Origin: Patescibacteria group bacterium
Lineage (GTDB): Bacteria; Patescibacteriota; Microgenomatia; UBA10105; UBA927
Length of the DNA stretch: 64,000 nucleotides
Assembly (NCBI GenBank): GCA_035510735.1
Contig: DATKGN010000002.1
Span: 3,275-67,274 of the forward strand
Direction: 5' to 3'
Part shown: piece by piece, positions 10,244 to 57,251 of the stretch
Layout of the letters: every line of letters begins with the position of its first letter
How positions within the stretch are numbered: position 1 is the stretch's first letter
Notes under the pieces: model-generated
Database searches by the model: none
Told to the model about the DNA's origin: nothing
What the model saw: only the letters and a program-made list of their open reading frames with translations
Translations under genes and position numbers: made by a program

Positions 10244-10280
10244 GTGTATGAGGCCTCCGACCGATGACTCCGCCGATCTT

Positions 10281-10306
10281 GTTATCATGTTCCGTTACAT
10301 GATAAC
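10281..10306 (+). promoter_or_regulatory. 26-bp palindrome GTTATCATGT-TCCGTT-ACATGATAAC (copy 1) overlapping the putative promoter of the TrpR-like regulator gene
   Basis: Perfect 10-bp inverted arms with a 6-bp spacer. The arms embed TTGTTA (-35-like) and GATAAC (-10-like) 17 bp apart. An extra half-site TATCATG at 10310-10317 overlaps the start codon. Confidence 0.55.
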
Positions 10307-10314
10307 GTAATATC

Positions 10315-10755
10315 ATGACACAAATATCAAGACGGCATCTCGATGCCAAAACGCAAAAACGTATATATGAAATATTTACCGACGTTATTGCGGATGTAAA
10401 AACGCCATCTGAAGTTCAGGCATTGCTCGAAGATTTTTTCACCCCAACCGAACGCGTGATGCTTCCTAAGCGCTTATGTATCGCCTTCTTATTACTAAAA
10501 GGCTACGATCACAGAACGATTGCATCATATTTGAAAGTAAGCTTCACCACAATCAATCGCGTTAGTACCTCATTAAAAGTCGGTGGAAAAGGATATACTC
10601 TTGTTCTTACCCGTTTACGCAAACGCAAACAATTTGAATCTGTACTTACACAAATTGAAAATGGAATCGTTTCGATGTTAGCTTCAATTGGCGGACCAAG
10701 CCGTTTATGGAAAACAGTTCAAAACACACAACATAACTCTAAGTATATAGACTGA
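10315..10755 (+). CDS. TrpR-like DNA-binding protein, YerC/YecD family
   Basis: FFTPTERVMLPKRLCIAFLLLKGYDHRTIASYLKVSFTTINRVSTSLKVGG matches the YerC/YecD (Trp-repressor-fold) helix-turn-helix pattern. The gene is flanked on both sides by the same palindrome. Confidence 0.6.
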   Translation: MTQISRRHLDAKTQKRIYEIFTDVIADVKTPSEVQALLEDFFTPTERVMLPKRLCIAFLLLKGYDHRTIASYLKVSFTTINRVSTSLKVGGKGYTLVLTRLRKRKQFESVLTQIENGIVSMLASIGGPSRLWKTVQNTQHNSKYID

Positions 10756-10770
10756 AGCCTCTTTCAATTT

Positions 10771-10796
10771 GCTATCATGTAACGGAACATGATAAC
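10771..10796 (+). promoter_or_regulatory. 26-bp palindrome GCTATCATGT-AACGGA-ACATGATAAC (copy 2, spacer reverse-complemented relative to copy 1)
   Basis: Lies 16 nt after the regulator stop and ~25 nt upstream of the thrS -35 box. Confidence 0.5.
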
Positions 10797-10820
10797 AACT
10801 AAATTCCATCATGAGTAGCA

Positions 10821-10849
10821 TTGACAAGAGCATCTATACCATTTAGACT
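10821..10849 (+). promoter_or_regulatory. thrS promoter candidate TTGACA-17-TAGACT
   Basis: TTGACA 10821-10826, 17-bp spacer, TAGACT 10844-10849. About 235 nt upstream of the thrS ATG, which implies a long leader. Confidence 0.5.
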
Positions 10850-10855
10850 ATGAAT

Positions 10856-11086
10856 ACTTCCCGTTTGCATGAGACGTAACGAACCTCAAAGAGAAGCGCG
10901 AGTCTCAGCGTAAAGAGAATAATTAAGTCACCATTGTTGGATGGAACCTCGAAGCGAAAGCTGAGATCCAACGAGAACGGGTGACTTTTTTGATGGACAG
11001 TTAACGATCCGTCAGTTTACGGAGAGTTTACTGCCATCAATCCTCCGAAGCCTTGGCGAAGGAGGATGTACAATAAGGAGGAATCT
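10856..11086 (+). promoter_or_regulatory. Structured thrS 5' leader; candidate T-box-like riboswitch/attenuator
   Basis: The ~230-nt untranslated leader holds a complex intrinsic terminator and a Stem-I-like hairpin TGAGAC...GTCTCA whose loop carries an ACC (Thr) triplet. The segment GGATGGAACCTCG resembles the T-box core AGGGTGGNACCGCG (10/13). An anti-SD hairpin ATCCTCC/GGAGGAT lies just before the SD AAGGAGG. Confidence 0.4.
10927..10991 (+). terminator. Intrinsic terminator/attenuator inside the thrS leader
   Basis: Outer stem GTCACC (10927-32)/GGTGAC (10980-85) and inner stem GTTGGAT (10936-42)/ATCCAAC (10966-72), followed by T6 (10986-91). Confidence 0.5.
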
Positions 11087-12841
11087 ATGAAAAACGAAGA
11101 ATATCTTGATCAAATTCGACACTCGTGTAGCCACTTACTGACGGCTGCAATTGAAGCCCTTTACCCAGGTGTCAAACAAACCATCGGTCCACCGATTGAA
11201 AACGGGTTTTACCATGATTACGATTTAGGTGACATGAAAATCTCGGAAGATGATTTCCCTAAAATTGAACAAAAAATGCACGAACTCGTGAAAAATTGGA
11301 AATCGTTTGAAGGACGGGAAGAGACGGAAAAGGAAGCACTCGCACAGTTTAAGGATAACGAGTACAAACAGGAATTGATCCGGGAATTCGCGAAAGACAA
11401 GCAAAAACTGACACTCTACACCTCCGGCGGGTTTATCGATTTGTGCCACGGTGGTCACACTGCTCACCCGGACGAGGAGCTCAAATACTTTAAGCTCCTC
11501 TCGGTTGCCGGTGCCTATTGGCGGGGAAGTGAAAAGAATAAGATGCTCACGAGAATTTATGGCACGTGTTTCCCGACACAAAAAAAATTGGATGACTATC
11601 TGGCGGCCCGCAAGCTTGCTGAGGAGTCTGATCACAGGAAAATCGGCAAGGATCTCAATCTCTTCGTTTTTTCCGATCTTGTCGGCCGCGGCTTGCCGCT
11701 CTTAACCCCGAAGGGAAGTATCATCCGGCGGATTCTTGAGCGCTTCGTCGTCGATACGGAAATTGCCTGGGGCTATTCGCACGTCTATACACCGCCGATT
11801 GCCAAAACAGATCTCTACAAAACATCGGGTCACTATCCGTACTATAAAGACACGATGTATCCCGTTATGAAAGTTGATGAGGATGAACTAATCCTGCGGC
11901 CCATGACGTGCCCGCATCATTTTATGCTCTACAAAAGCTCGCCCAGGAGTTATAAAGAGCTGCCGCTTAAACTCGCTGAGATCGCGCCGCAGTTCCGGTA
12001 CGAAAAGAGCGGTGAACTCTCCGGACTTATGCGGGTCAGGACGTTCATGCTGTCGGATTCCCATATATTTACCCAAAAAGAAAAGGCAAAAGACGTCATC
12101 CTCGAGGTTATCAAGTTAATCGATTACTTAAACGGTGCCCTTGGATTCAAAAAAGGTGAGGACTACCGTTTCCGGCTGTCGTTGGGCGAACGAAACGATG
12201 AGAAAAAATATTACAAAGACGATAAAGCGTGGGATGAGGCCGAGGAAGTCCTGCGTAGCGTTCTAAAGGAAATCGACGCGCCGTACTTTGAAGCTCCTAA
12301 CGAGGCGGCATTTTACGGGCCAAAAATTGACGTCCAGATAAAAAAGGTCAACGGCCAGGAAGAAACGGCCTTCACGGTACAATATGACTTTGTCATGCCC
12401 AAGCGGTTTGAACTGACCTACACAAATGATAAAGGTGAAAAAGAAGAACCGGTCGTCATCCACAGGGCATCAATCGGCGCTCTGGAGCGAACGATGGCAT
12501 TTCTTATCGAAAAGTACAAAGGCGCCATGCCGCTGTGGCTTTCCCCGGTGCAGGTAGCGCTCATTCCTATCGCCGAGCGGCATAATGAAGCAGCCAAAAA
12601 GACAGCGGAATTTCTGCGTAAACGTGGGGTTAGGGTCGATATTGACGACCGCAGTGAGTCTATGCAGGCCAAGATTCGGTATAACACTTTACAAAAAGTC
12701 CCCTATTTAGGTATAATAGGGGATCGAGAAGCAAGTTCTGACAGCATTTCTGTGAGAACTCGGAAAGGTGAAGATCTCAAGGCAATGAGCCGTGAGATAT
12801 TTGCTGACCGTCTTGGGAGCGAGATTGAGCACAAACTTTAG
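11087..12841 (+). CDS. thrS: Threonyl-tRNA synthetase (lacks the N-terminal TGS domain)
   Basis: HSCSHLL editing-domain zinc motif, class II core, DHRKIGKDLNLF motif and a C-terminal anticodon-binding domain. The start is set at the ATG 7 nt after the SD AAGGAGG; the ORF-track start at 11066 adds only 7 codons. Confidence 0.92.
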   Translation: MKNEEYLDQIRHSCSHLLTAAIEALYPGVKQTIGPPIENGFYHDYDLGDMKISEDDFPKIEQKMHELVKNWKSFEGREETEKEALAQFKDNEYKQELIREFAKDKQKLTLYTSGGFIDLCHGGHTAHPDEELKYFKLLSVAGAYWRGSEKNKMLTRIYGTCFPTQKKLDDYLAARKLAEESDHRKIGKDLNLFVFSDLVGRGLPLLTPKGSIIRRILERFVVDTEIAWGYSHVYTPPIAKTDLYKTSGHYPYYKDTMYPVMKVDEDELILRPMTCPHHFMLYKSSPRSYKELPLKLAEIAPQFRYEKSGELSGLMRVRTFMLSDSHIFTQKEKAKDVILEVIKLIDYLNGALGFKKGEDYRFRLSLGERNDEKKYYKDDKAWDEAEEVLRSVLKEIDAPYFEAPNEAAFYGPKIDVQIKKVNGQEETAFTVQYDFVMPKRFELTYTNDKGEKEEPVVIHRASIGALERTMAFLIEKYKGAMPLWLSPVQVALIPIAERHNEAAKKTAEFLRKRGVRVDIDDRSESMQAKIRYNTLQKVPYLGIIGDREASSDSISVRTRKGEDLKAMSREIFADRLGSEIEHKL

Positions 12842-21381: not shown

Positions 21382-22146
21382 ATGAACATAAAAACAAAAT
21401 GCAAAAAACCAATAATTATCGCCGGTCCCTGTGCCGCCGAATCGAAAGCGCAAATCGCGTTGTCCCTGCGCGAGGCCAAAAAACGGGCTATCGACTTCGT
21501 GCGCATCAGCCTCTGGAAACCAAGGACCAAACCCGGATTTGAGGGCCTGGGATTTCGAGGAATTGACCTTCTCATTGAGGCCGCACGACTCGGCCTTTCC
21601 CCTGCCACTGAAGTCATTCTGCCTGAGCAGGCCCGCGCCGTCATGGATGCGGTATTAGGTGAAGTGCCGGAGACACGGCTCATGCTCTGGATTGGCGCGC
21701 GCAATCAAAATCACTACATCCAAAGGGAAATTGCGCGTGTTGCAGCGTCCGATAAGCGGGTCCTGCTGATGGTTAAAAACCAACCGTGGAGCAATGAGGA
21801 TCACTGGGAAGGCATTGTCGGACATGTATTAAGCGGTGGAATCGATAAGGCCCGCGTAATTCTCTGTCACCGTGGTTTTATACCCAACGGCGTTAATCCA
21901 TTCGGATACAAAAACGTGCCTGATTATGAGATGGCGATGAGAATAAAACATACATCAGGGTTACCAATGATATTTGACCCATCGCACACAGGCGGAACTG
22001 TTGATAAAGTTTTGCAAATTATGGACGAGGCCATGAAGCATGAGTTTGACGGGATTATCGTTGAGGTGCATCCCGATCCGACTCATGCGCTCACGGATGC
22101 GAAGCAACAATTGACATGGAAGGAATTTGATCAATTACGCGTATGA
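21382..22146 (+). CDS. aroG: 3-deoxy-7-phosphoheptulonate (DAHP) synthase, type I-beta (KDO8PS-like fold)
   Basis: IIAGPCAAES and the (beta/alpha)8 DAHPS/KDO8PS family signature, with no regulatory extension. First gene of the shikimate operon. Confidence 0.8.
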   Translation: MNIKTKCKKPIIIAGPCAAESKAQIALSLREAKKRAIDFVRISLWKPRTKPGFEGLGFRGIDLLIEAARLGLSPATEVILPEQARAVMDAVLGEVPETRLMLWIGARNQNHYIQREIARVAASDKRVLLMVKNQPWSNEDHWEGIVGHVLSGGIDKARVILCHRGFIPNGVNPFGYKNVPDYEMAMRIKHTSGLPMIFDPSHTGGTVDKVLQIMDEAMKHEFDGIIVEVHPDPTHALTDAKQQLTWKEFDQLRV

Positions 22147-23237
22147 ATACAATTATTTTGAACCAATCACAAAAAGAAAAAACTCAGGCGTGCCCGATTA
22201 TCATCGGGAATAATCTTGTGGGGAAAATTAATACGCTTTTTGACCTGTCCGTGTTTTCCCGGATAGTGGTTGTTACGGATACCAATACCGAGCGGCTCTT
22301 CCTTAAAACGCTTCTTTGTGCACTGCCAAAAAGTGCAGCGCGTGTCGTGTTACCCACGGGCGAGAAAGAAAAGAATTTCAAAAACGTTCAAAAAATATTG
22401 ATTGCGATGCACAAGGCATATTGTGATAGGGATACTCTCGTTATCAATCTTGGCGGCGGGGTCGTGAGCGATATCGGAGGATTTGCCGCAAGCATATTTA
22501 TGCGGGGCGTAAGTATACTCAACATTCCGACAACATTGCTTGCCCAGGCGGACGCAAGTATCGGAGGCAAAACCGGCATCAACTTTTTGGGAATTAAGAA
22601 TCTTGTTGGGACGTTTGCCCAACCGATAGGCGTCGTTATTGATGTGACAACGTTGCGGTCGCTTCCGGGGCGTGAATTGATCTCAGGGTTTGCCGAAATA
22701 ATTAAACACGGGCTCGTTGCTAATCGCACATTATTTCATTTAGCAACGTGCAAAACACCGCGGGATTTTACGAATAATAAACTCATCGCTATTATCACCA
22801 AATCATGCCGGGTAAAGGCCGACATCGTGAGTTGCGATCATACGGAACAACACGAGCGGAAACTCCTTAATTTCGGCCATACGATCGGACATGCCGTAGA
22901 AGCATTAAGCCAAACGTCCGTAAATCCCATTCTCCACGGAGAAGCGGTTGTCATCGGTATGATGGTCGAGGCAAAAATTTCAGAGCTCTCCGGTCTCCTG
23001 TCGCAAACCTCATGTTCTGTTATCGAAGAAGCTCTTACTTCACTTCCATTACCCAAATTACCGGAAGTAATACCGATTCAGAACATCATGGATGTGATCC
23101 GGTCGGATAAAAAAAGTAAAAACGGAATTATTCAGTGGACGCTCTTAACGGAAATCGGCAAAGGAATAATTAATCAGGTTGTCTGCGATAACACAGTTAT
23201 TGCAGCACTCAAACAAACGAAAGGAATAATCGTATGA
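22143..23237 (+). CDS. aroB: 3-dehydroquinate synthase
   Basis: NAD-binding GGGVVSDIGGFAAS motif and metal-binding NFGHTIGHAVE motif. Confidence 0.9.
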   Translation: MNTIILNQSQKEKTQACPIIIGNNLVGKINTLFDLSVFSRIVVVTDTNTERLFLKTLLCALPKSAARVVLPTGEKEKNFKNVQKILIAMHKAYCDRDTLVINLGGGVVSDIGGFAASIFMRGVSILNIPTTLLAQADASIGGKTGINFLGIKNLVGTFAQPIGVVIDVTTLRSLPGRELISGFAEIIKHGLVANRTLFHLATCKTPRDFTNNKLIAIITKSCRVKADIVSCDHTEQHERKLLNFGHTIGHAVEALSQTSVNPILHGEAVVIGMMVEAKISELSGLLSQTSCSVIEEALTSLPLPKLPEVIPIQNIMDVIRSDKKSKNGIIQWTLLTEIGKGIINQVVCDNTVIAALKQTKGIIV

Positions 23238-23668
23238 AAATATTAGTCGTCAATGGACCGAATTTGAATTTATTGGGTAAGCGCGATCACTCAAAGTACG
23301 GAACGATAACGCTTGGCCAACTCAATAACCAACTCAATCGTATAGCCAAAGAAACCGGCGTCAGTCTGACGTTTTTCCAATCGAATCACGAGGGAGCCAT
23401 TATTGATTTTCTCCAAAAAGATGCATCACGGGATGCGGACGGCGTCCTTATCAATCCGGGTGCTCTTGTGCGATACGGTTGGTCTTTGCGTCAAGCGCTC
23501 ATTGATCTTGGAAAACCGATTGTTGAAGTGCATATGTCTGACATTAATAGCACCGGCGTCAATAAAGCGGTTAACGTATTAGAAGGTATTCGCATAGATC
23601 AAATTGTCGGGTTAAAAGAGCAAAGTTACGAGTTGGGTCTTAAAAAATTATTACAAATAATTCTATGA
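23234..23668 (+). CDS. aroQ: 3-dehydroquinate dehydratase, type II
   Basis: MKILVVNGPNLNLLGKRD...INPGAL...HMSDI is the type II DHQase pattern. Confidence 0.9.
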   Translation: MKILVVNGPNLNLLGKRDHSKYGTITLGQLNNQLNRIAKETGVSLTFFQSNHEGAIIDFLQKDASRDADGVLINPGALVRYGWSLRQALIDLGKPIVEVHMSDINSTGVNKAVNVLEGIRIDQIVGLKEQSYELGLKKLLQIIL

Positions 23669-24972
23669 ACTTACACGTCCTACCGGCACAATCAATAAAA
23701 GGGGAAGTGGCAATGCCAAGAAGTAAAACCCACTCATTCAGGGCGCTCGTTCTTGCGGCCCTTGCAGATGGCACATCGACTATCCGAAAGCCCAAAATAA
23801 GTAATGATTGGAATATCGCAGTGGGTGGACTTCAACAGTTCGGCGCAACGATTAAAGAAACAGAGCCGAATGTCTTTCGTGTCACCGGCGTCGGGGGCAA
23901 TCTGCAAACCCCCAAGGAAGTTATTCATGTCGGAAACTCGGGGACGATGCTCTTCTTCCTCGCGGGTGTTGCAGCCGCTTGTCCGGGTATTTCTATCATC
24001 ACGGGGGATGAATCGATTAGATTACTGAGGATAATATCACGAAATCTATTTCAACCGTTTGAAGAACTCGGCGTGAGCATTACCTCGTCAAAGAATGACG
24101 GTATGGCCCCGCTCATCATCAAGGGGAACGTGAACGGTGGAGTCGCGCATATGGACGGCACCGGTTGCCAGCCCGTATTCAGCATTCTTATCGCGTCGGC
24201 CCTTTCATCAAAACCTGTTGAACTATTCGTTACAAGCCCGGGTGAAACGGCGTATATTGATTTACTTCTATTCTGGTTCAAAAAGGCAGGGATTGAGTGT
24301 CAAAACGTCGGGGGGACCCACTCGCATTATGTTTTTCCGGGAAACCAGCTGGCCAAAGCGTTCGATGAAACAATACCGCTCGAATGGTCAGCCTCCGCGT
24401 ATCCGCTTCTTGCGGCTCTTATTCTGCCGAATTCAAAAATGACGGTAAAGAATATGGACTTTGCCGATCCGTATGGAGATAAATTTGTTATCGATGTTCT
24501 GCGGCAAATGGGCGGAGACATTAGAGTGCATGATGGTAACCTGACTGCACAATCAAGCAGGCTTCATGGCATTGAAGTCGACATGAATCTGCTCCCTGAT
24601 CAAGTGCCCACGGTTGCGGTTGCCGCGTGTTTTGCGAAAGGAGCAACTGTTATCACAAATGCGCTAACAGCCCGATGGAAAGAGTGCGACCGTATTTCGG
24701 CTATTTGCAAGGAACTTAAAAAAATGGGAGCCGATATTCGCGAAAAGAGCGACGGACTCGTCATCCATGGCATCGAGGGAAAGAACATGCACGGCGCATC
24801 CATTGACGGTCATAAGGATCATCGTATGGTTTTGTCGTTAGCTGTCGCGGGAATGCAAGCCACTGGGGAAACAGTAATCACAGATGCCGAGATGGTCGAA
24901 AAATCATTTGAGACATTTATCCCGGACATGACACATGCAGGTGCTCTATTTGCACTGAAGGAGAGAACATGA
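23665..24972 (+). CDS. aroA: 3-phosphoshikimate 1-carboxyvinyltransferase (EPSP synthase)
   Basis: 435 aa with MPRSKTHSFRALVLAALADG...GNSGTMLFFLAG... and the EPSPS two-domain architecture. Confidence 0.9.
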   Translation: MNLHVLPAQSIKGEVAMPRSKTHSFRALVLAALADGTSTIRKPKISNDWNIAVGGLQQFGATIKETEPNVFRVTGVGGNLQTPKEVIHVGNSGTMLFFLAGVAAACPGISIITGDESIRLLRIISRNLFQPFEELGVSITSSKNDGMAPLIIKGNVNGGVAHMDGTGCQPVFSILIASALSSKPVELFVTSPGETAYIDLLLFWFKKAGIECQNVGGTHSHYVFPGNQLAKAFDETIPLEWSASAYPLLAALILPNSKMTVKNMDFADPYGDKFVIDVLRQMGGDIRVHDGNLTAQSSRLHGIEVDMNLLPDQVPTVAVAACFAKGATVITNALTARWKECDRISAICKELKKMGADIREKSDGLVIHGIEGKNMHGASIDGHKDHRMVLSLAVAGMQATGETVITDAEMVEKSFETFIPDMTHAGALFALKERT

Positions 24973-25496
24973 AAAATATAATTCTTATCGGCATGAAAGG
25001 ATGCGGCAAATCGACCGTAGGCCGAGTGTTATCAAAAAAACTCGGTATGCGTTTTGTGGAACTTGATGATGAAATATCAATGCTTTATGAAAAGAAAACG
25101 GGAAAACGACTGTCGTGCCGGAAAATATTTAGAAACATCGGCGAAGAAGACTTTCGTCAACTCGAAACGGACGCGCTAAATAATGTGAAACGTATACAAA
25201 ATATGGCTCTATCCTGCGGCGGCGGCACGCCGTTATCGGAAACAAATCAGGGAATGCTCCGATCTATGGGCACGGTCGTATTTCTTGATACCGACGAAGA
25301 CATTCTATTAAAACGAATAAAAACAGGCGGTATCCCTTCGTTTTTTAAAAAAAATGAAGACCATAAAACATCGCTCCATCAAGTGTTGGAAACGCGTTTT
25401 CCGGTGTACGAAAAAATTGCGGGCGTTCGTCTCGCACTTCGTGATGAATCACCCGAAGAAATAGCAACGCATATTTCTGAAAGGATTGGACTATGA
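24969..25496 (+). CDS. aroK: Shikimate kinase
   Basis: Walker A GMKGCGKSTVG, a small NMP-kinase fold and operon context. Confidence 0.85.
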   Translation: MKNIILIGMKGCGKSTVGRVLSKKLGMRFVELDDEISMLYEKKTGKRLSCRKIFRNIGEEDFRQLETDALNNVKRIQNMALSCGGGTPLSETNQGMLRSMGTVVFLDTDEDILLKRIKTGGIPSFFKKNEDHKTSLHQVLETRFPVYEKIAGVRLALRDESPEEIATHISERIGL

Positions 25497-26320
25497 ATAT
25501 AAACGGGGAAACAAAAATTATCGGTTTTTTGGGTGCAACGTTCAAAACAAGCAGAATATACGCGTTGTACAATGCCGCGTTTGCCGCATTACATCTCAAT
25601 TTTGTCTATATACCGCTTCCCTTTGGTGACGTTGAAAAGGCGGTAGAGGGAATACGAAACATGCGGATAGCTGCCGTAGGCGTAACCGTGCCGTTTAAAA
25701 TATCGATCCTGCCGTTTTTAGACGGTCTGGATAGACAAGCAAAACGAGTACGAGCCGTAAATGTCGTTATCAACGATAACGGAAAACTAATCGGCGGCAA
25801 CACCGACGGCGAAGGCGGCGTGCTTGCGCTCAAAGAAAAAACGGCTCTAGGTGGTAAAGGCGTTTTGTTGTTAGGTGCAGGCGGAGCAGCGCGGGCGATT
25901 GCTTTTTCGCTCATTGATAATGGCGCAGACGTGACGATTGTTAATAGAACAGTTGCTGCAGCCGGGGAGTTGGCCACCTCAGCAGGTTGCCGTTTCGATC
26001 AACTTACATCGTTATCAAGACATATAAAAAATGCAGACATTCTCATTAATGCAACAACTGTGGGTATGGGGCCGAATACGGATAAATCGTTAGTTCCTAA
26101 AGCATTACTCCGTCCTGATCTAACCGTATTGGATGTCGTAAGTAATCCCAAAGAAACACAGCTTGTTAGCGATGCACGAAGCGCGGGTTGCACGGTAGTC
26201 AGTGCCGACAGGATGCTTCTCTGGCAGGCGGCATTGAAGTTCAAACTATTTACAGGAGTTGAAGCGCCTATTTCTGTTATGGAAACGGCACTCAAGGAAA
26301 CGGAGGCTTATGGCAGGTAA
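25493..26320 (+). CDS. aroE: Shikimate 5-dehydrogenase
   Basis: NADP-binding LLLGAGGAARAIAF, N-terminal substrate domain and operon context. Confidence 0.85.
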   Translation: MNINGETKIIGFLGATFKTSRIYALYNAAFAALHLNFVYIPLPFGDVEKAVEGIRNMRIAAVGVTVPFKISILPFLDGLDRQAKRVRAVNVVINDNGKLIGGNTDGEGGVLALKEKTALGGKGVLLLGAGGAARAIAFSLIDNGADVTIVNRTVAAAGELATSAGCRFDQLTSLSRHIKNADILINATTVGMGPNTDKSLVPKALLRPDLTVLDVVSNPKETQLVSDARSAGCTVVSADRMLLWQAALKFKLFTGVEAPISVMETALKETEAYGR

Positions 26321-27395
26321 TACGTTTGGTCAATTATTTCGTATCACAACCTTCGGCGAATCCCATGGAGGGGCCGTCGGCGTGGTCGTTGACGGATGTC
26401 CGCCGGGTTTGGAGCTTTCAACCGAAGACGTACAAAAAGAACTGGACCGGAGAAAACCCGGACAAAGCGCCATTACATCACCACGAAAAGAACAGGACGA
26501 AATCCATATTATGTCGGGAGTTCACGACGGCAAAACAACGGGGACGCCGATTATGCTCATGGCATTGAATACCGATGCAAAACCCGAGGATTATCTCACA
26601 CTGAAAGATCTCTATCGGCCGGGTCACGCGGATTTTACATTTGAAAAAAAATTCGGTATCCGTGATTGGAGAGGTTCCGGCCGGGCATCAGCAAGAGAAA
26701 CGCTTGGAAGAGTAGCGGCAGGGGCCATAGCAAAGAAATTCCTTAAGGAAAAATTACATATCGAAATCTTCAGTTTCGTCGAACAGGTTGGTAATATAAA
26801 GACGGGCGTTGATTTTAACACTGTCAGTTTAGCCGAAATAGAATCGAACATCGTCCGTTGTCCAGACCCGAAAGTGGCCAAAAGGATGATTGCACTTATC
26901 GAAAAAGTTAGAGACGAGGGTGATTCCGTCGGTGGTGTTATCCGCGGCGTTATAAAGAACGTACCCGTGGGCTTAGGCGAACCGGTGTTTGATAAGTTAT
27001 CTGCCGATTTAGGAAAAGCAATGCTCTCAATTAACGCCGTCAAAGGTTTTGATATCGGATCGGGATTTGACGGAGTCACGATGCAGGGGAGCAGACATAA
27101 TGACGAATTCGTTACCAATAAGAACGGCACGATACGTACAAAAACAAACAATGCAGGCGGAACATTGGGCGGTATTTCCAACGGCGAGACAATCTATTTC
27201 CGTGTCGGGATGAAACCTGTCTCAACGATACGCAAAAAGCAACGAACGGTAAATGCCCAAGGCAAACCCGTTGACCTTGAGGCGACCGGTCGTCATGATC
27301 CGTGTGTGTTGCCGCGGGCGGTTCCGATCGTAGACGCGATGGCAGCGCTTGTCGTTATGGATCATTATTTACGGCACAAAGCGCAAAACGGATAA
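26310..27395 (+). CDS. aroC: Chorismate synthase
   Basis: Starts MAGNTFGQLFRITTFGESHG, the canonical AroC N-terminus, preceded by SD AAGGAAACGGAGG. The ORF-track start 26259 is an extension overlapping aroE. Confidence 0.9.
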   Translation: MAGNTFGQLFRITTFGESHGGAVGVVVDGCPPGLELSTEDVQKELDRRKPGQSAITSPRKEQDEIHIMSGVHDGKTTGTPIMLMALNTDAKPEDYLTLKDLYRPGHADFTFEKKFGIRDWRGSGRASARETLGRVAAGAIAKKFLKEKLHIEIFSFVEQVGNIKTGVDFNTVSLAEIESNIVRCPDPKVAKRMIALIEKVRDEGDSVGGVIRGVIKNVPVGLGEPVFDKLSADLGKAMLSINAVKGFDIGSGFDGVTMQGSRHNDEFVTNKNGTIRTKTNNAGGTLGGISNGETIYFRVGMKPVSTIRKKQRTVNAQGKPVDLEATGRHDPCVLPRAVPIVDAMAALVVMDHYLRHKAQNG

Positions 27396-27399
27396 TCAT

Positions 27400-27675
27400 A
27401 TGCAAAACGCATCCCTTAACCATTGGCGAGACCAAATCGATAAGCTTGATAATGAGCTTCTGTCTCTATTGGCAAAACGGATGGAGATCGTACAAAAAAT
27501 CGGAAGAATAAAACAATCATCGCATGCCTCCATCCTCGATAAAAAACGCTGGCAACAAGTACTTGAGGGAATCGACGCAAAAGCGAAAAAACTTAAACTT
27601 CCCAAAAAATTCGTTCATGAATTATTTACCCGTATTCACCAGCAAGCTTTGGAGACAGAAAGGAAAGACCTATGA
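27400..27675 (+). CDS. Chorismate mutase (AroQ class, monofunctional)
   Basis: ~91 aa helical protein (DKLDNELLSLLAKRMEIVQKIGRIK) in the aro operon. Start chosen at the ATG just after the aroC stop. Confidence 0.65.
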   Translation: MQNASLNHWRDQIDKLDNELLSLLAKRMEIVQKIGRIKQSSHASILDKKRWQQVLEGIDAKAKKLKLPKKFVHELFTRIHQQALETERKDL

Positions 27676-28823
27676 AAGCGTTTCAACTCTCCAATCGTCT
27701 TAACCAATTTCCGGAATATATTTTTTCTGCACTCAATAAACAAGTTGTTGAGGTAGAAAAAAAATCGGGCCGCAAGGTACTTAATTTAGGCATCGGGTCA
27801 CCCGATTTCCCCCCGAGCCGGATGTACCTCAATAAACTCAAAGAATATATTGATGAGAAGGGGAGTCATTTATATCCGGGCAATGGTGCAATCCCTGAGT
27901 TAGAAGAAGGACTGCAACATTGGTACAACTCGCGGTTTAACGTGACGCTCGCACAAAATGAGCTCTACCCATTATTGGGCAGCAGGGACGGCGTTGCCCA
28001 CTTACCACTGGCCCTCTGCAATAGGGGAGACGAGATAGTGGTTCCCGATCCTGGGTACCCTGCATTTACCGGTCCCGCTCTCATGATCGGCGTTAAACCA
28101 ATATATTACAATCTCGTGGCCGCAAACAATTTCAAAATTAACCTTAAGGAATTGGAAAGGAAAATCACACGAAAAACAAAATACATGTGGGTTAACTTTC
28201 CTTCAAACCCGACGGGGCAGGTTGCCACCATTGAAGAATTGCGAACTCTTGTCGCGTTCGCAAAAAATCACAATATCTGGCTTCTCTACGATAATGCGTA
28301 TGCAGAAATTACGTTTGACGGTTTTGTCGCACCGAGCATTCTTCAAATCGAGGGCGCGAAAGACATCGCGGTCGAAATCGGATCATTTTCCAAAACATTT
28401 TCATTTGCCGGTTTTCGCATGGGCTGGATTGTTGGAAATAGTGAGATTATTGCTGCCTTAGCAAAAATTAAATCTCAGATGGATTCAGGATTGTCTCTAC
28501 CGTTTCAAAAACTGGGCGGATTCGCGCTCACGCATCCGGATCGCGCTTGGCATGCTGAAATGATTGCAGCGTACCAACTCCGACGGGATATCATTATCAA
28601 GGCCCTGAAAACTATTGGTCTTGACGCCAATAAAACTAAGGGAAGCCTGTATCTTTGGGTTAACATACCGGATCGGTTTTCTGACTCGAAACACTACGCA
28701 CAAACGGTGTTGAGAGAAAAACAAATACTCCTGACTTCCGGAACGGCATTCGGAAAAAACGGAACAAGATATGTTCGTGTGAGTGTTTGCGCTAATATAG
28801 ATTCAATTGCCGAATATTTATAA
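27672..28823 (+). CDS. Class I PLP-dependent aminotransferase (probably aromatic/prephenate aminotransferase)
   Basis: NPTGQV motif, PLP-lysine region SFSKTFSFAGFRMGW and operon context. Confidence 0.8.
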   Translation: MKAFQLSNRLNQFPEYIFSALNKQVVEVEKKSGRKVLNLGIGSPDFPPSRMYLNKLKEYIDEKGSHLYPGNGAIPELEEGLQHWYNSRFNVTLAQNELYPLLGSRDGVAHLPLALCNRGDEIVVPDPGYPAFTGPALMIGVKPIYYNLVAANNFKINLKELERKITRKTKYMWVNFPSNPTGQVATIEELRTLVAFAKNHNIWLLYDNAYAEITFDGFVAPSILQIEGAKDIAVEIGSFSKTFSFAGFRMGWIVGNSEIIAALAKIKSQMDSGLSLPFQKLGGFALTHPDRAWHAEMIAAYQLRRDIIIKALKTIGLDANKTKGSLYLWVNIPDRFSDSKHYAQTVLREKQILLTSGTAFGKNGTRYVRVSVCANIDSIAEYL

Positions 28824-28841
28824 TACGATACACACCTTGTC

Positions 28842-28867
28842 ATCCTCGGGCCGAAGGACCCGAGGAT
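28842..28867 (+). other. Perfect hairpin ATCCTCGGG-ccgaagga-CCCGAGGAT, no U-tract
   Basis: 9-bp perfect stem located 19 nt after the aminotransferase stop. Confidence 0.45.
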
Positions 28868-28888
28868 CAAGGCTAAATGAAAAAATGG

Positions 28889-28908
28889 ATTCCCGCCTTC
28901 GCGGGAAT
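28889..28908 (+). other. Perfect hairpin ATTCCCGC-cttc-GCGGGAAT, no U-tract
   Basis: 8-bp perfect stem, 18 nt upstream of the tyrA-pheA fusion gene. Confidence 0.45.
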
Positions 28909-28925
28909 GACAAATACAAAATTAT

Positions 28926-30257
28926 ATGAAAAAAATAAGTATTGTCGGTTTCGGAAGATTCGGAAAAGTCTTATATCGTTTAGTAAAGGACGATTTCGTT
29001 GTCACGGTCTATACCAGAAAACCAATTAATTCAGGAACGGAAATATCACCTAATACAGTATTAACCAATTCCATACAAGATATTTACAAAAGCGATGTCA
29101 TATTTTTCGCTGTTCCGATTGATGCATTTGAAAGCGTCATAAAAGCGCATAAAAAATACTTTATACCGGGACACCTTCTTATTGATGTGTTGTCGGTAAA
29201 GCTGCATCCGCGAAGCGTATTTGAGAAACACCTCAAAGGCAGTAAAACACAGGTTCTGTTAACGCACCCTATGTTCGGGCCTGACAGCAGCCGTAATGGC
29301 TTTGATGGCTTACCCATTATCATGGACCGGTTCAAAGCGGATGAAACGAACTATGTTTTCTGGAAGAATTACTTCACCAATAAACATCTGCATGTTATTG
29401 AGATGTCAGCGCGGGATCATGACAGGCTTGCGGCAAATTCCCAGGGGTTGACGCATTTCGTCGGGCGCTTATTGGATTCCTATGGCCTACGACCGACTCA
29501 AATTGACTCATTAGGTACAAAAAAATTATTGGAAGTCATTGACCAAACGTGTAATGACTCGTGGCAGTTATTTACGAATTTGCAGCATTTTAATCCCTAC
29601 ACCAAACGGATGCGGATGGAACTTGGCGATACGTATGACCGGCTATACAATAAATTATTGCCGAAGCAGCATAATCCGCATTACATAACGTTCGGCATCC
29701 AGGGCGGAAAAGGAAGCTTTAATGAACAGGCGATACACGATTACGTAGAAAAAGAAGAGATTAAGCACTATAGAATCAAATATCTATACACGACAGCCGC
29801 GGTGATGCGTGCGCTCCACACTGGAGAAATCGATTTCGGACAATTCGCTATCCATAATTCGGTGGGTGGGATTGTGGGTGAATCGATTAACGCGATGGCG
29901 GACTACAGATTTACAATCGTAAAAGAGTTCGCTATCAAAATTTCGCATGCACTTATGATCCGGAAGGACGCCACATTAGAGGACGCGACGACAATTATGA
30001 CCCATCCGCAGGTTCTCGCGCAGTGCAAAGCAACGCTTGCCCGAAAGTATCCGCAATTGGCGCAAACGTCAGGGACGGGAATCCTATTGGATCATGCTGT
30101 GGTTGCAAGGCAATTGGGTTGCGGTAAACTACCGAAAGAAATTGCGACCATGGGGAGCAGAATCCTCGCTACGCTTTATGGTTTGAAAATTGTCGAGGTC
30201 AATCTGGAGGACGCCAAGGAAAACTTTACGATCTTTCTCATTGTCACACGCACATAA
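28926..30257 (+). CDS. Fusion protein: prephenate dehydrogenase (TyrA, N-terminal) - prephenate dehydratase (PheA, C-terminal)
   Basis: The N-terminus MKKISIVGFGRFGKV is a Rossmann NAD-binding fold typical of TyrA. From ~residue 255, ITFGIQGGKGSFNEQA...TRFLIV-like begins a PDT domain. Confidence 0.7.
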   Translation: MKKISIVGFGRFGKVLYRLVKDDFVVTVYTRKPINSGTEISPNTVLTNSIQDIYKSDVIFFAVPIDAFESVIKAHKKYFIPGHLLIDVLSVKLHPRSVFEKHLKGSKTQVLLTHPMFGPDSSRNGFDGLPIIMDRFKADETNYVFWKNYFTNKHLHVIEMSARDHDRLAANSQGLTHFVGRLLDSYGLRPTQIDSLGTKKLLEVIDQTCNDSWQLFTNLQHFNPYTKRMRMELGDTYDRLYNKLLPKQHNPHYITFGIQGGKGSFNEQAIHDYVEKEEIKHYRIKYLYTTAAVMRALHTGEIDFGQFAIHNSVGGIVGESINAMADYRFTIVKEFAIKISHALMIRKDATLEDATTIMTHPQVLAQCKATLARKYPQLAQTSGTGILLDHAVVARQLGCGKLPKEIATMGSRILATLYGLKIVEVNLEDAKENFTIFLIVTRT

Positions 30258-30269
30258 TCCAACCATTTT

Positions 30270-30295
30270 GTTATCATGTACCGTTACATGATAGC
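30270..30295 (+). promoter_or_regulatory. 26-bp palindrome GTTATCATGT-ACCGTT-ACATGATAGC (copy 3) upstream of tyrS
   Basis: Same arms as copies 1 and 2; sits 63 nt upstream of the tyrS ATG, overlapping a -35/-10-like pair. Confidence 0.5.
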
Positions 30296-30357
30296 AAAGA
30301 TAAAAAAAGGAAATTACTGAGAAAATGCGAAAAACATGATATAGTAAAGAAGCTCAT

Positions 30358-35636: not shown

Positions 35637-36317
35637 ATGCTCCATATCAGTATATTGACGCTTTTCCCCGACATGTTCGAAGGCCCATTTAATCAGTCAA
35701 TCATCCATCGTGCAATTGAAAAAAAAATAGCTTCGATAGAGTACATTGATCTTAGAAACTACGCGGCTGACAAGTATAAAAGCGTCGATGACCACCCGTA
35801 CGGCGGGGGACACGGCATGATTTTACGGGTAGATGTCATAGACCACGCAATTATAGATATAAAACGGCGTTTTCACGAAAAGGCCCATGCCATCCTTCTG
35901 GATCCGCAGGGAATTACCTATTCGCAATCAAAAGCAAAGGAATTAAGCCGCAAAAACCATATTATTCTTATCTGTGGCCACTATGAAACCTTTGATGAAC
36001 GCGTGCGAAATCTCGTTGATGAAGAGATATCAATCGGAGATTATATTGTGACCGGCGGAGAAATACCTGCAATGGCCGTTGTCGACAGCGTCATACGGCT
36101 TCTCCCGAATGCCCTTTCAAAAACACAGGCAACGAACGACGAATCTTTTTCAAAACCGGTCCTCGAATACCCGCAATACACGCGGCCTCTCGTCTATGAA
36201 AACCGTAAAGTCCCCGCAATATTATTATCGGGAGATCATAAGAAAATTGACTCCTGGAGACAAACCCAGGCTCTTGCCCGCACCAAAAAGCGACGGCCGG
36301 ATCTACTCAAAGGTTAA
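35637..36317 (+). CDS. trmD: tRNA (guanine37-N1)-methyltransferase
   Basis: SPOUT-fold TrmD motifs (ILTLFPDMFEGP..., GGYEGIDERV-like region, ISIGDYIVTGGE). Confidence 0.9.
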   Translation: MLHISILTLFPDMFEGPFNQSIIHRAIEKKIASIEYIDLRNYAADKYKSVDDHPYGGGHGMILRVDVIDHAIIDIKRRFHEKAHAILLDPQGITYSQSKAKELSRKNHIILICGHYETFDERVRNLVDEEISIGDYIVTGGEIPAMAVVDSVIRLLPNALSKTQATNDESFSKPVLEYPQYTRPLVYENRKVPAILLSGDHKKIDSWRQTQALARTKKRRPDLLKG

Positions 36318-36329
36318 AACAATAATCTG

Positions 36330-37073
36330 CTAAGGTGAAAACGGGTCCGAGCGGGTTTCATTCGAAGTCGGAGATATTACAGCTTGCCCTTCGGTTGCGA
36401 CACTGAGAATAGGCATTTTTTCCACCGTTGCAATTATCTGATTTTCTTTCGCGGAAAGAGGCTGTAATTGCGACTCTGTGGCGCCTATAGTGACGGTTAA
36501 GGGTGAATAAAATGCATCCATCCCCATACGCACGGAAATGTTTGATGGGTCTAAAAATGAAATCTCAAAATTTCGGACACGGAAGAACCGTCGGACAGAA
36601 ATTGACTGAGCAAGAAAATCATGTATCTGCTGGTAGTTTCCTACAACGGTTACTTCAAACGGTAAAAGACTCGAACCTATCTGACGTTCCTCATTCGTCA
36701 GTTTTTGAGCCGATTGGCTTGCGATGGATCCTGGTTTGGAAAGCGACACATCCGTAACGGCGACGCCACTTTGTGCAGCAAGTGCATCAAGCGTGGTAAA
36801 AAGCGTCGTTAACGACTTATCAGCAGGGACTGCAGCAATAAGTTGCTGAAGCTGATTTTTATACGTTGCTTCATCTTCGCTGTCGAGAACTGTTACTTTT
36901 GTCTGCAATTGAGCAATACTCTCGGAAAGCGCAACAGAGTCGCTCCGGATCTGAATAATTTTCCCAATGATGGGGATGATCCCGAAAACAGTTCCGAGTA
37001 TCGATATGAGTATCATCGCTCCCGATATACTGATACCCTGATACTTGCGTAAATATTTAGAATAGGGTTGCAT
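36330..37073 (-). CDS. pilO: Type IV pilus assembly protein PilO-like
   Basis: N-terminal TM helix plus coiled-coil, immediately downstream of pilN in the pilMNO arrangement. Confidence 0.6.
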   Translation of the reverse strand: MQPYSKYLRKYQGISISGAMILISILGTVFGIIPIIGKIIQIRSDSVALSESIAQLQTKVTVLDSEDEATYKNQLQQLIAAVPADKSLTTLFTTLDALAAQSGVAVTDVSLSKPGSIASQSAQKLTNEERQIGSSLLPFEVTVVGNYQQIHDFLAQSISVRRFFRVRNFEISFLDPSNISVRMGMDAFYSPLTVTIGATESQLQPLSAKENQIIATVEKMPILSVATEGQAVISPTSNETRSDPFSP

Positions 37074-55166: not shown

Positions 55167-55260
55167 ATAAATACTATAACACTCTACAGAAACAATTCGT
55201 GGAATGCTTGACACTAAACTGACAAATAGTCGGGGCGCTAAAATGGCTCCTACAACGGTC

Positions 55261-55289
55261 TGGACAAGAAAAAGATGATAGTGTATGAT
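55261..55289 (+). promoter_or_regulatory. Candidate gyrB promoter TGGACA-17-TATGAT
   Basis: Hexamers with 17-bp spacing, ~45 nt upstream of the gyrB ATG. Confidence 0.35.
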
Positions 55290-55304
55290 GATTTGAAGAG
55301 CTGA

Positions 55305-57251
<1,947 letters not shown>

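What the first reader, a model, noticed from the sequence alone, without database searches (positions are those of the whole stretch)
10281..10796. TrpR-fold (YerC/YecD-family) regulator gene bracketed by two copies of a 26-bp palindrome
GTTATCATGT-N6-ACATGATAAC, with 10-bp perfect inverted arms, occurs at 10281-10306, overlapping the putative leaderless promoter of the regulator gene. An extra half-site overlaps the ATG. The motif occurs again at 10771-10796, just after the regulator stop and ~25 bp upstream of the thrS -35 box. A search by eye found the motif only at one further site in 64 kb, in front of tyrS. The size and symmetry fit a dimeric HTH operator. Two copies bracketing its own gene suggest autoregulation by the Trp-repressor-like protein, a family whose function and DNA targets in monoderms are essentially uncharacterised. 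The second copy also sits at the thrS promoter.
Basis: seen in the sequence. Interest (0 to 1): 0.62.

Follow-up and report, generated by a model that had tools for sequence, protein, structure and literature searches.

The report
Palindrome-bracketed TrpR-like regulator gene cassette
In an uncultured candidate-phyla-radiation bacterium, the gene for a small Trp-repressor-fold DNA-binding protein sits between two copies of a 26-bp palindrome that is very probably its own binding site; the arrangement recurs across the radiation with lineage-specific palindromes, and a few more near-identical copies lie elsewhere, some inside genes, so it is not the amino-acid repressor of thrS/tyrS first proposed.

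Summary
GTTATCATGT-N6-ACATGATAAC occurs three times in 64 kb (0.01 expected): at 10281-10306 (perfect), 10771-10796 and 30270-30295 (one mismatch each). The gene between the first two encodes a 146-aa TrpR-fold protein of a Patescibacteria (CPR) genome.

New evidence: in 21 of 26 related CPR genome loci, and in every complete metagenome locus, the orthologous gene is bracketed the same way. The palindrome sequence changes with the protein lineage, whatever gene lies downstream. In this clade the upstream copy ends exactly 8 nt before the start codon and supplies an extended -10 (TGATARCNT) for a leaderless mRNA, which points to autorepression.

The second copy belongs to the regulator's own cassette and is not a thrS operator. 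thrS has its own promoter and a T-box-like leader. YerC is no longer uncharacterised: it is HisR. This protein falls below the YerC/YecD threshold.

Further copies are rare (about one per 100-170 kb) and all-or-none perfect. They are kept at orthologous positions between genomes whose proteins are only 46-76% identical. They lie in convergent, divergent, co-directional and even coding DNA, next to unrelated housekeeping genes.

So this is a high-specificity genome-wide DNA-binding protein, not an amino-acid regulon. What the solo sites do is unresolved.

The parts
10280..10306 (.). Upstream copy of the palindrome (T + GTTATCATGT-TCCGTT-ACATGATAAC); putative operator overlapping the regulator's promoter
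   Evidence: Exact match. The same position (8 nt before the start codon) holds in all Gottesman-clade orthologues. Lineage-specific equivalents lie 0-14 nt before the start in most of the 26 CPR loci.
10300..10308 (+). Extended -10-like element TGATAACGT (TG 10300-10301, hexamer TAACGT 10303-10308) inside and just beyond the right arm; predicted TSS = A10315 (leaderless mRNA)
   Evidence: Read directly from the sequence. TGATARCNT with a fixed 8-nt gap to ATG/GTG is conserved in the large majority of the orthologues examined; a few end in A instead of T (TAACAA). No SD is present. Other genes here show TAnnnT 5-8 nt before the ATG. This is inference; no TSS data exist.
10315..10755 (+). Gene for the 146-aa TrpR-fold protein: conserved N-terminal arm MTQISRR, TrpR core at residues 11-103, two C-terminal helices at 105-145 with a GGPSxxW motif
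   Evidence: Pfam PF01371, 56.8 bits. NCBIfam YerC/YecD 37.7 bits, below the 42.2 cut-off. PDB profile hits 3FRW/3KOR/3G1C. AF2 pLDDT 80.6. Foldseek top hits are the same structures, TMt 0.72-0.83. 1202 family representatives at E<=1e-10; the best-scoring ones listed are mostly about 145-150 aa.
10770..10797 (.). Downstream copy of the palindrome (T + GCTATCATGT-AACGGA-ACATGATAAC + A), 15 nt after the stop codon; second site of the regulator cassette
   Evidence: Orthologous copies lie about 5 nt after the stop in 21 of 26 genome loci and in all complete metagenome loci, regardless of the downstream gene.
10821..10849 (+). thrS promoter TTGACA-17-TAGACT (separate from the palindrome)
   Evidence: Promoter scan, 10/12 matches. 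Conserved in relatives at variable distance from the palindrome.
10857..10991 (+). T-box-like thrS leader: specifier ACG 10879-10881, TTGGATGGAACC 10937-10948, terminator stem 10927-10985 plus T6 at 10986-10991
   Evidence: Alignments: the specifier varies only among Thr codons (ACG/ACC/ACT). Fold z-score is -5.9. Rfam's T-box model does not hit.
11087..12841 (+). thrS (threonyl-tRNA synthetase); SD AAGGAGG at 11075-11081; the listed ORF starts at 11066
   Evidence: Pfam tRNA-synt_2b, HGTP_anticodon, tRNA_SAD; sequence.
30269..30296 (.). Third (solo) copy of the palindrome (T + GTTATCATGT-ACCGTT-ACATGATAGC + A), between the aromatic amino-acid operon and tyrS
   Evidence: A copy sits 56 nt before tyrS in L037, although the two TyrRS are only 46% identical and the upstream neighbour differs.
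30337..30345 (+). tyrS extended -10 TGATATAGT, 12 nt before the ATG at 30358; it resembles a right half-site
   Evidence: Sequence; conserved in L037. Inference.

Best explanation
The palindrome is a 28-bp unit, T-GYTATCATGT-WCCGTT-ACATGATARC-A. It is the cognate DNA site of the adjacent 146-aa TrpR-fold protein, which belongs to a large CPR-specific family of about 150-aa proteins. Each has a conserved N-terminal arm, a TrpR/HisR-like helix-turn-helix core and a C-terminal two-helix extension.

The protein binds as a dimer or a dimer of dimers. The upstream copy overlaps the extended -10 (TGATAACGT) of the gene's own leaderless promoter, whose start site is the A of the ATG, 8 nt past the palindrome. 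Occupancy therefore shuts off the gene (negative autoregulation).

The downstream copy, a few nucleotides after the stop codon, is a fixed part of the same self-contained cassette and is not an operator of thrS. It most likely cooperates with the upstream copy. It could do so by raising local occupancy or looping across about 490 bp through the C-terminal extension. Alternatively it could block transcription from running out of or into the gene.

The same near-invariant site occurs at a handful of other places per genome, including in front of tyrS here. The protein is therefore a low-copy, very high-specificity genome-wide DNA-binding protein and not an amino-acid-specific repressor.

Status of each step: the bracket, the co-variation, the fixed geometry at the start codon and the selection on solo sites are shown. 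Binding, repression, looping or roadblock, and any ligand are inferred.
For: The three sites are non-random. The protein has a TrpR fold.

The bracket is present in 21 of 26 CPR genome loci and in all metagenome loci that hold a complete regulator. Upstream and downstream copies within a genome share 23.4 of 26 positions. Copies from genomes whose proteins are under 50% identical share 14.4 of 26. Protein identity and motif identity correlate (Spearman 0.345; 0 of 2000 permutations reach it). Recognition-helix variants track motif classes.

The gap to the start codon is a fixed 8 nt and carries TGATARCNT.

The downstream copy is retained with unrelated or convergent neighbours.

Sites show no degenerate tail: 12 sites with at most 1 mismatch in 150 kb, none with 2-4, and background frequency from 5 mismatches up. 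Solo sites are retained at orthologous positions where the proteins are 46-76% identical and the flanks only about 60%.

At the variable arm position, U.G (5) and C.A (4) are equally common in the sense strand. This argues for DNA-level rather than RNA-level recognition.
Against: There is no binding or expression data of any kind.

28 bp is long for one TrpR-type dimer.

The absence of weaker sites, the in-frame copies inside real genes (rsmI, pepP, ATP-dependent DNA ligase, a tyrS linker) and sites between convergent genes are all atypical for a transcription-factor regulon.

The spacer asymmetry is strictly conserved and is oriented relative to the local gene direction (28:10 independent contexts, p=0.005). 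A symmetric dimer-operator model does not explain this.

The C-terminal helices are modelled with low confidence, so oligomerisation through them is a guess.
Confidence: 0.55

Rival explanations
1. The protein is an amino-acid-responsive (Trp/Tyr/Phe-type) repressor that autoregulates and also controls aminoacyl-tRNA synthetase genes (thrS, tyrS) through the palindrome.
For: Sites lie next to thrS and tyrS in the window, before tyrS again in L037 and before alaS in L041/L061. Site 3 follows a complete aromatic amino-acid operon. By my reading of the aligned sequences, TrpR ligand-contact residues T44/R54/R84 have equivalents (T43/R53/R82) in this clade.
Against: The downstream copy persists where the next gene is gyrA (convergent), a P-type ATPase, TatD or an unknown gene. 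thrS has its own promoter and a T-box-like Thr leader. The site-to-promoter distance varies: the palindrome end lies 7 to 24 nt from the thrS -35, and its centre lies 52-78 nt before other start codons with no helical phasing. Other sites flank dcd, thyA, folD, glyA, pyrE/F, uppS, a Mur ligase, trmD and glycosyltransferases, or lie inside genes. The R84 equivalent is not conserved across the family.
Confidence: 0.12
2. A chromosome-level site system rather than promoter control. A few long, invariant sites are bound by a dedicated protein whose gene sits at its own sites. It would be comparable to Tus-Ter or RTP-Ter (fork or RNA-polymerase barriers) or to MatP-matS and ParB-parS (chromosome organisation).
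For: Copy number is low and sites are all-or-none perfect. Sites are tolerated and conserved inside coding sequences without any length change. Sites occur in every intergenic configuration. The conserved asymmetric spacer is biased in orientation relative to gene direction. The gene lies next to its own sites and appears autoregulated, as for tus/TerB and rtp/TerI (established knowledge). The C-terminal extension could bridge dimers as in MatP (inference).
Against: The genome-wide distribution could not be examined, because only 20-kb loci were available. Several other CPR lineages have perfectly symmetric spacers such as TTCGAA, TTTAAA, TACGTA and ATTAAT, so polarity is not a family-wide property. 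The two copies around the gene are inverted in some genomes and direct in others. No origin or terminus signal was found near the window's sites.
Confidence: 0.15
3. A selfish or once-mobile short palindromic repeat with an associated gene. It would resemble REP elements with their flanked RAYT gene, or Rickettsia palindromic elements that sit in frame inside genes.
For: The gene is flanked by the repeat. Copies are near-identical with no intermediates. In-frame copies encode CYHVPLHDSK or AIMFRYMIT in four unrelated proteins. A site is present or absent at a syntenic position: after trmD in L033/L054 but not in the window. The spacer is flipped between orthologous sites.
Against: The protein has only a TrpR-type HTH and no nuclease or transposase domain. 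Copies are kept at the same positions between genomes with 46-76% identical proteins while their flanks have diverged. Density is only about 1 per 100-170 kb. Intragenic copies replace sequence without changing length. There is no link to phages or plasmids.
Confidence: 0.08
4. An RNA-level element. The transcribed palindrome forms a 10-14-bp hairpin in 3' UTRs that ends, stabilises or processes mRNAs.
For: Predicted hairpins are stable, -9.4 to -15.7 kcal/mol. In co-directional and convergent contexts the site usually lies 1-28 nt after a stop codon. The loop reads WCCGUU in the sense strand in most contexts.
Against: The 3' flank is A-rich and the 5' flank T-rich on both strands, so there is no U-tract in either direction. 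In L033 a canonical terminator follows the site. C.A mismatches are as frequent as U.G in the sense strand. Sites also occur between divergent genes. The regulator's upstream copy would not be transcribed if the mRNA is leaderless. The idea does not explain co-variation with the protein.
Confidence: 0.06
5. A promoter element. Each arm read inwards is a near-consensus extended -10 (TGYTATCAT), so the palindrome is a pair of overlapping promoters rather than an operator.
For: T precedes the palindrome in 63/66 sites, giving TGYTATCAT on both strands.
Against: Downstream genes carry their own TATAAT-like -10 just before the ATG. Sites occur inside genes and between convergent genes. Arms in other lineages are poor -10 matches.
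Confidence: 0.04

Closest known systems
HisR (B. subtilis YerC; YerC/YecD family, structures 3G1C, 3FRW, 3KOR)
   Same: It is the closest sequence and structure relative. Both are TrpR-fold proteins with a palindromic operator, and the regulator's own gene is often preceded by a site (PMC9413887).
   Different: HisR is about 100 aa. Its operator is a 20-bp cacTTTAnnnnnnTAAAgtg upstream of his biosynthesis and transport genes, and histidine is the corepressor. The protein here is about 150 aa with a C-terminal extension and scores below the YerC/YecD cut-off. Its site is an unrelated 26-28-bp sequence. No his genes are nearby. Sites bracket the gene and occur outside promoters.
E. coli TrpR and the trp/aroH/trpR operators
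   Same: Same fold. The recognition helix is similar in this clade (TTINRVSTSLK versus ATITRGSNSLK). Both autoregulate through an operator at their own promoter. TrpR binds in tandem to long operators.
   Different: The protein scores far below the TrpR equivalog cut-off (28 versus 67 bits). The operator sequence differs. There are no trp genes among the neighbours. A second site lies after the stop codon, and intragenic sites exist.
Tus-TerB and RTP-TerI/II (replication terminator proteins)
   Same: A small site-specific protein whose gene lies at one or two of its own 23-30-bp sites and is autoregulated by them. A handful of further highly conserved, oriented sites are scattered in the chromosome irrespective of promoters.
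   Different: The folds are unrelated. Ter sites are asymmetric throughout and cluster around the terminus; here the arms are symmetric and the distribution is unknown. This is an analogy only; nothing was tested.
MatP-matS, ParB-parS, Noc-NBS
   Same: Few, nearly invariant palindromic sites that may lie in coding DNA. The roughly 150-aa MatP bridges two sites through a C-terminal coiled coil.
   Different: The folds differ. There is no evidence of regional clustering, spreading or bridging here.
REP elements with RAYT genes (REPtrons); Rickettsia palindromic elements
   Same: The gene is flanked by the palindromic repeat, which is also dispersed in the genome. Some copies lie in frame within coding sequences.
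   Different: There is no HUH transposase. The copy number is very low. Copies are positionally conserved over deep divergence. No length change accompanies intragenic copies.

Membership tests
Pfam Trp_repressor (PF01371) / TrpR-like fold | Profile match above the gathering score | tested here: met
   56.8 bits against a cut-off of 27, E 2.5e-15, residues 20-101.
Pfam Trp_repressor (PF01371) / TrpR-like fold | Three-dimensional fold like solved TrpR/YerC structures | tested here: met
   The AF2 model has pLDDT 80.6. Foldseek top hits are 3KOR, 3FRW, 3G1C and then E. coli TrpR, with probability 1.0 and TM (target) 0.72-0.83.
YerC/YecD (TIGR02531) = HisR | Score at or above NCBIfam's curated cut-off | tested here: not met
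   37.7 bits against a cut-off of 42.2. Three other CPR members score 33.5-36.0.
YerC/YecD (TIGR02531) = HisR | Protein of about 100 aa without extra domains | tested here: not met
   146-150 aa with two extra C-terminal helices. The best-scoring representatives listed are mostly 145-150 aa and align over nearly their full length.
YerC/YecD (TIGR02531) = HisR | 20-bp operator cacTTTAnnnnnnTAAAgtg upstream of his genes or histidine transporters (PMC9413887) | tested here: not met
   The flanking palindromes are GYTATCATGT-N6-ACATGATARC or lineage variants built on ATG(A/T)-N6-(T/A)CAT. None of the neighbouring proteins that were scanned matched a his biosynthesis or histidine-transporter family.
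TrpR (TIGR01321 equivalog) | Score at or above the curated cut-off | tested here: not met
   28.3 bits against a cut-off of 67.25.
Autoregulated HTH repressor with operator at its own promoter | Conserved palindrome overlapping the core promoter of the regulator gene and co-varying with the protein | tested here: met
   The promoter assignment itself is inferred from sequence.
Autoregulated HTH repressor with operator at its own promoter | Protein binds the site and represses transcription | not testable with these tools
   Needs EMSA, DAP-seq or reporter assays.
Intrinsic (Rho-independent) terminator | G+C-rich hairpin followed by a U-tract | tested here: not met
   The stem has 3-4 G-C pairs out of 10. 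The 3' flank is A-rich and the 5' flank T-rich on both strands. The terminator scan finds nothing at the sites.
REP/RAYT-type or other mobile palindromic element | Associated transposase or nuclease; many copies; insertion polymorphism | tested here: not met
   Only an HTH domain is present. Density is about 1 solo copy per 100-170 kb. Copies are positionally conserved at 46-76% protein identity. One presence/absence case exists at a syntenic position.
T-box riboswitch (for the thrS leader, not the palindrome) | Match to Rfam RF00230 | tested here: not met
   No hit at the gathering threshold or at E<=10.
T-box riboswitch (for the thrS leader, not the palindrome) | Specifier codon for the cognate amino acid, T-box sequence with UGGN, terminator/antiterminator | tested here: met
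   The ACG/ACC/ACT + A specifier varies only synonymously across 8 lineages. TTGGATGGAACC is invariant. The hairpin is followed by a T-run. Judged by eye against the consensus as I recall it.
Replication-terminator or chromosome-organising site systems (Tus/RTP, MatP, ParB) | Sites clustered and oriented with respect to origin or terminus | not testable with these tools
   Only the 64-kb window and loci of up to 20 kb could be read. The orientation bias relative to gene direction is 28:10.

The most novel reading that the evidence does not exclude
CPR bacteria carry a previously unrecognised, radiation-wide 'protein plus invariant site' system built on the TrpR fold. About 5-10 strictly conserved, oriented 28-bp sites per genome (two of them enclosing the protein's own gene) would act at the chromosome level. 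They could serve as barriers to replication forks or RNA polymerase, or as anchoring or bridging points, in the manner of Tus-Ter, RTP-Ter or MatP-matS, rather than as promoter operators.
Probability: 0.18. Interest if true: 0.85.

Novelty: new variant of a known kind. Interest (0 to 1): 0.68.

Why it matters
CPR/Patescibacteria make up a large share of bacterial diversity, have very few recognisable regulators, and have almost no experimentally defined regulator-DNA pairs.

This work gives a concrete, testable pair. The family has over 1200 representatives at 50% identity, and its cognate site can be read directly from each genome because it brackets the gene. That makes DAP-seq, EMSA or co-crystallisation straightforward. 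It also offers natural specificity variants for studying HTH-DNA co-evolution.

The features that do not fit a normal regulon are perfect sites only, sites inside genes, sites between convergent genes, a conserved oriented spacer, and a second site after the stop codon. They suggest the protein does more than repress promoters. If so, it could reveal how these minimal cells insulate genes or organise their chromosomes.

The work also corrects the annotation logic. 'Trp operon repressor' or 'YerC' labels on these proteins should not be read as tryptophan or histidine control.

Tried and rejected
Rfam on the whole window, on the locus and on 8 related loci found nothing at or near the palindromes and no T-box hit. 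tRNA and tmRNA scans found none near the sites.

The intrinsic-terminator idea was rejected because of flank composition and the scan result.

The activator-site idea was rejected. Palindrome centres lie 52-78 nt before start codons with no helical phasing, and many sites have no promoter nearby.

The Xer/dif-like recombination-site idea (11+6+11 architecture) was considered. It was set aside because direct and inverted pairs around the same gene are both stably inherited and no recombinase gene was noted among the neighbours that were scanned. It was not tested further.

An origin of replication in the 54.3-55.3 kb gap was not supported: there is no DnaA-box cluster and the GC skew is weak and tracks gene strand.

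There is no phage or plasmid connection; the only hits are S. aureus YerC.

Four literature searches for a described CPR TrpR-like regulator found nothing relevant.

One contig look-up (P0004) returned genes but no DNA.
Full report
OBSERVATION. The motif GTTATCATGT-N6-ACATGATAAC, allowing up to 3 mismatches, occurs exactly three times in the 64-kb window. The sites are 10281-10306 (perfect), 10771-10796 (GCTATC..., one mismatch) and 30270-30295 (...GATAGC, one mismatch). Shuffles give 0.01 expected. Site 1 ends 8 nt before the ATG (10315) of a 146-aa ORF. Site 2 starts 15 nt after that ORF's stop and ends 24 nt before the -35 of a TTGACA-17-TAGACT promoter. Site 3 lies 12 nt after a fused prephenate dehydrogenase/dehydratase gene, which closes a complete shikimate/aromatic operon, and 62 nt before tyrS. 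The 'extra half-site' over the ATG has three mismatches and is not conserved in orthologues.

THE PROTEIN. The ORF matches Pfam Trp_repressor (56.8 bits). It scores below NCBIfam's cut-offs for YerC/YecD (37.7 against 42.2) and for TrpR (28.3 against 67.25). A family profile finds the HisR-type structures 3FRW, 3KOR and 3G1C first and E. coli TrpR weakly. An AlphaFold model (pLDDT 80.6) shows a TrpR core at residues 11-103 plus two lower-confidence C-terminal helices at 105-145. Foldseek returns the same structures. Homologues are all from Patescibacteria/CPR and are about 150 aa, with an invariant N-terminal Q3/S5 arm and a C-terminal GGPSxxW motif. The family has 1202 representatives at 50% identity with E<=1e-10. 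B. subtilis YerC has been identified as HisR, a histidine-dependent repressor with a 20-bp operator (PMC9413887).

THE BRACKET IS CONSERVED AND CO-VARIES. Twenty-six related loci were fetched from species-representative genomes: Gottesman-, Levy-, Roizman-, Giovannoni-, Sungbacteria and others. In 21 of them a 26-bp palindrome lies 0-14 nt before the start codon (31-48 nt in three lineages), and the same palindrome lies about 5 nt after the stop. The sequence is lineage-specific. Examples are ACTTCAATGATTCGAATCATTGAAGC, GTCATAATGTATTAATACATTATGAC and GCTACAATGTATTAATACATTGTAGC, built around a common ATG(A/T)-N6-(T/A)CAT core. Upstream and downstream copies within a genome share 23.4 of 26 positions. 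Between genomes whose proteins are under 50% identical the figure is 14.4 of 26. Protein and motif similarity correlate, and 0 of 2000 permutations reach the observed value. Recognition-helix variants track motif classes. This is the main evidence that the protein binds the palindrome.

THE UPSTREAM COPY. In all members of the window's clade the palindrome ends exactly 8 nt before ATG/GTG. The right arm plus two bases reads TGATARCNT, an extended -10 whose predicted start site is the A of the start codon. No Shine-Dalgarno sequence is present. Other genes in these genomes carry TATAAT-like hexamers 5-8 nt before the ATG, so leaderless mRNAs are plausible here. A bound protein would occlude this promoter. 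Autorepression is therefore the best-supported mechanistic step, though it is inferred.

THE DOWNSTREAM COPY IS NOT A thrS OPERATOR. thrS follows the regulator only in the closest relatives, where the order is regulator-thrS-infC-rpmI-rplT-pheST. Elsewhere the next gene is a convergent gyrA, a P-type ATPase, TatD, a solute-binding protein or an unknown gene, and the copy is still there. The distance from the palindrome to the thrS -35 ranges from 7 nt (L085) to 24 nt (window). thrS has its own control: a strongly structured leader (z = -5.9) with a terminator and T-run. The leader also carries the invariant TTGGATGGAACC and a specifier that varies only among Thr codons (ACG, ACC, ACT) across eight lineages. 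This is a T-box-like attenuator that Rfam misses. The second copy is therefore part of the regulator's own cassette. I infer that it cooperates with the upstream copy by looping or by raising local concentration, perhaps through the C-terminal helices, or that it blocks read-through.

SOLO SITES. A metagenome scan with YTATCATGTNNCGNNACATGATAR returned 58 loci holding 77 sites. Only 14 of these loci contain the regulator. Site quality is all-or-none. In 150 kb of unbiased sequence there are 12 sites with at most 1 mismatch, none with 2-4, and background frequency from 5 mismatches up. Only one of those 12 is a solo site, and a further 20-kb locus adds none. That gives roughly one solo site per 100-170 kb. 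The conserved unit is 28 bp (T + 26 + A) with a T-rich 5' flank and an A-rich 3' flank. The spacer is always WCCGTT and never symmetric.

Contexts among the 75 near-perfect sites in these loci (regulator-flanking copies included) are: co-directional intergenic (24), convergent (4), divergent (5), intragenic (9), and one flank unknown (33). Neighbouring genes are heterogeneous housekeeping genes: tyrS, alaS, trmD, a miaB-like gene, tsaD, dcd, thyA, tdk, folD, glyA, pyrE/F, uppS, a Mur ligase, glycosyltransferases, fpg, AlkZ and pfkB. Intragenic copies lie in frame in rsmI (AIMFRYMIT) and in pepP, an ATP-dependent DNA ligase and a tyrS linker (CYHVPLHDSK). They cause no length change relative to orthologues that lack the site. 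Sites are kept at orthologous positions although the adjacent proteins are only 46% (tyrS), 50%, 58%, 64% (intragenic pepP) and 76% identical and the flanks only about 60%. This indicates strong purifying selection and argues against recent mobility.

At the variable arm position, U.G and C.A occur equally in the sense strand (5 against 4), which argues against selection on an RNA stem. The spacer is oriented relative to local gene direction in 28 of 38 independent contexts (p = 0.005). Around the regulator the two copies are inverted in some genomes and direct in others.

INTERPRETATION. The simplest account is a dedicated, very high-specificity DNA-binding protein that autoregulates at a leaderless promoter and occupies a few further sites. 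The aaRS or aromatic regulon reading fails on context. Four other readings were weighed.
- Terminator: fails on flank composition.
- Mobile repeat: fails on the lack of a catalytic domain, the low copy number and the positional conservation.
- Promoter element: fails on the intragenic and convergent sites.
- Chromosome-level role: not excluded. The long invariant oriented sites, their presence in coding DNA and the site after the stop codon are not explained by ordinary promoter control. These features leave room for a Tus/RTP- or MatP-like role, which I could not test without whole-genome site maps.

No paper describing this CPR family was found. There is no phage or plasmid link.

VERDICT. 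The conserved palindrome-gene-palindrome cassette and its sparse invariant satellite sites are a new variant of the autoregulated HTH theme. They are worth experimental follow-up.

Noticed in passing
window 10857-10991: The thrS leader looks like a T-box attenuator that Rfam's model misses. The specifier ACG (10879-10881) is replaced only by ACC or ACT in relatives. TTGGATGGAACC (10937-10948) is invariant. A terminator stem (10927-10985) is followed by T6. This would be a divergent short-Stem-I T-box in CPR.
   Followed up: partly
window 11000-11060; L022 15153-15215; L057 1606-1636 (- strand): A conserved element of about 60 nt, GTTAACGATCCGyCAG..CGGAGAGTTTAC..TCAATCC, with compensatory changes in two short stems. 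It lies between the T-box terminator and the thrS SD. In the distant genome L022 it sits in a 1.2-kb ORF-free stretch. An anti-SD CCTCC (11042-11046) can pair either with GGAGG at 11061-11065 or with the SD. It is not in Rfam and its function is unknown.
   Followed up: partly
L022 14630-15860: A 1.2-kb stretch with no credible ORF, tRNA or Rfam hit. It contains three lineage-type palindromes (14775, 14804, 15384) that bracket the structured RNA-like region.
   Followed up: no
window 21382-30257: A complete shikimate and Phe/Tyr branch operon in a CPR genome: DAHP synthase, DHQ synthase, DHQase II, EPSP synthase, shikimate kinase, chorismate synthase, chorismate mutase, an aminotransferase and a fused prephenate dehydrogenase-dehydratase. 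This is unusual for a group generally considered to lack amino-acid biosynthesis. A gap of about 760 nt with no credible ORF (25497-26258) lies inside it.
   Followed up: partly
window, e.g. 9112, 21382, 37627 (- strand), 51673; related loci L041, L048, L064: Many genes carry a TATAAT-like hexamer ending 5-8 nt before the start codon and no SD. This suggests widespread leaderless mRNAs in this lineage (10 of 56 window genes by a crude test).
   Followed up: partly
L045/L069 (rsmI), L053/L068 (pepP), L073/L078 (ATP-dependent DNA ligase), L076 (tyrS linker), L055: The 26-bp palindrome lies in frame inside real coding sequences. It encodes CYHVPLHDSK, CYHVTEHDSK or AIMFRYMIT, with no length difference from orthologues that lack it. 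In L078 the ligase ORF appears split at the site.
   Followed up: partly
window 36317-36330 versus L033 4267-4420 and L054 2518-2708: At the same syntenic position after trmD, two related genomes have the palindrome (in opposite spacer orientations) plus extra structured DNA. The window has only a 12-nt intergenic gap and no site.
   Followed up: partly
window 54252-55335: A 1.1-kb gap without credible genes lies upstream of gyrB, at a gene-strand switch and a local minimum of cumulative GC skew. No DnaA-box cluster was found, so its nature is open.
   Followed up: partly
L003, L005, L006 and other TPA MAG loci: Record titles call these MAGs 'uncultured Gammaproteobacteria'. Their gene content and the regulator family are CPR-like, so the labels look wrong.
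   Followed up: no
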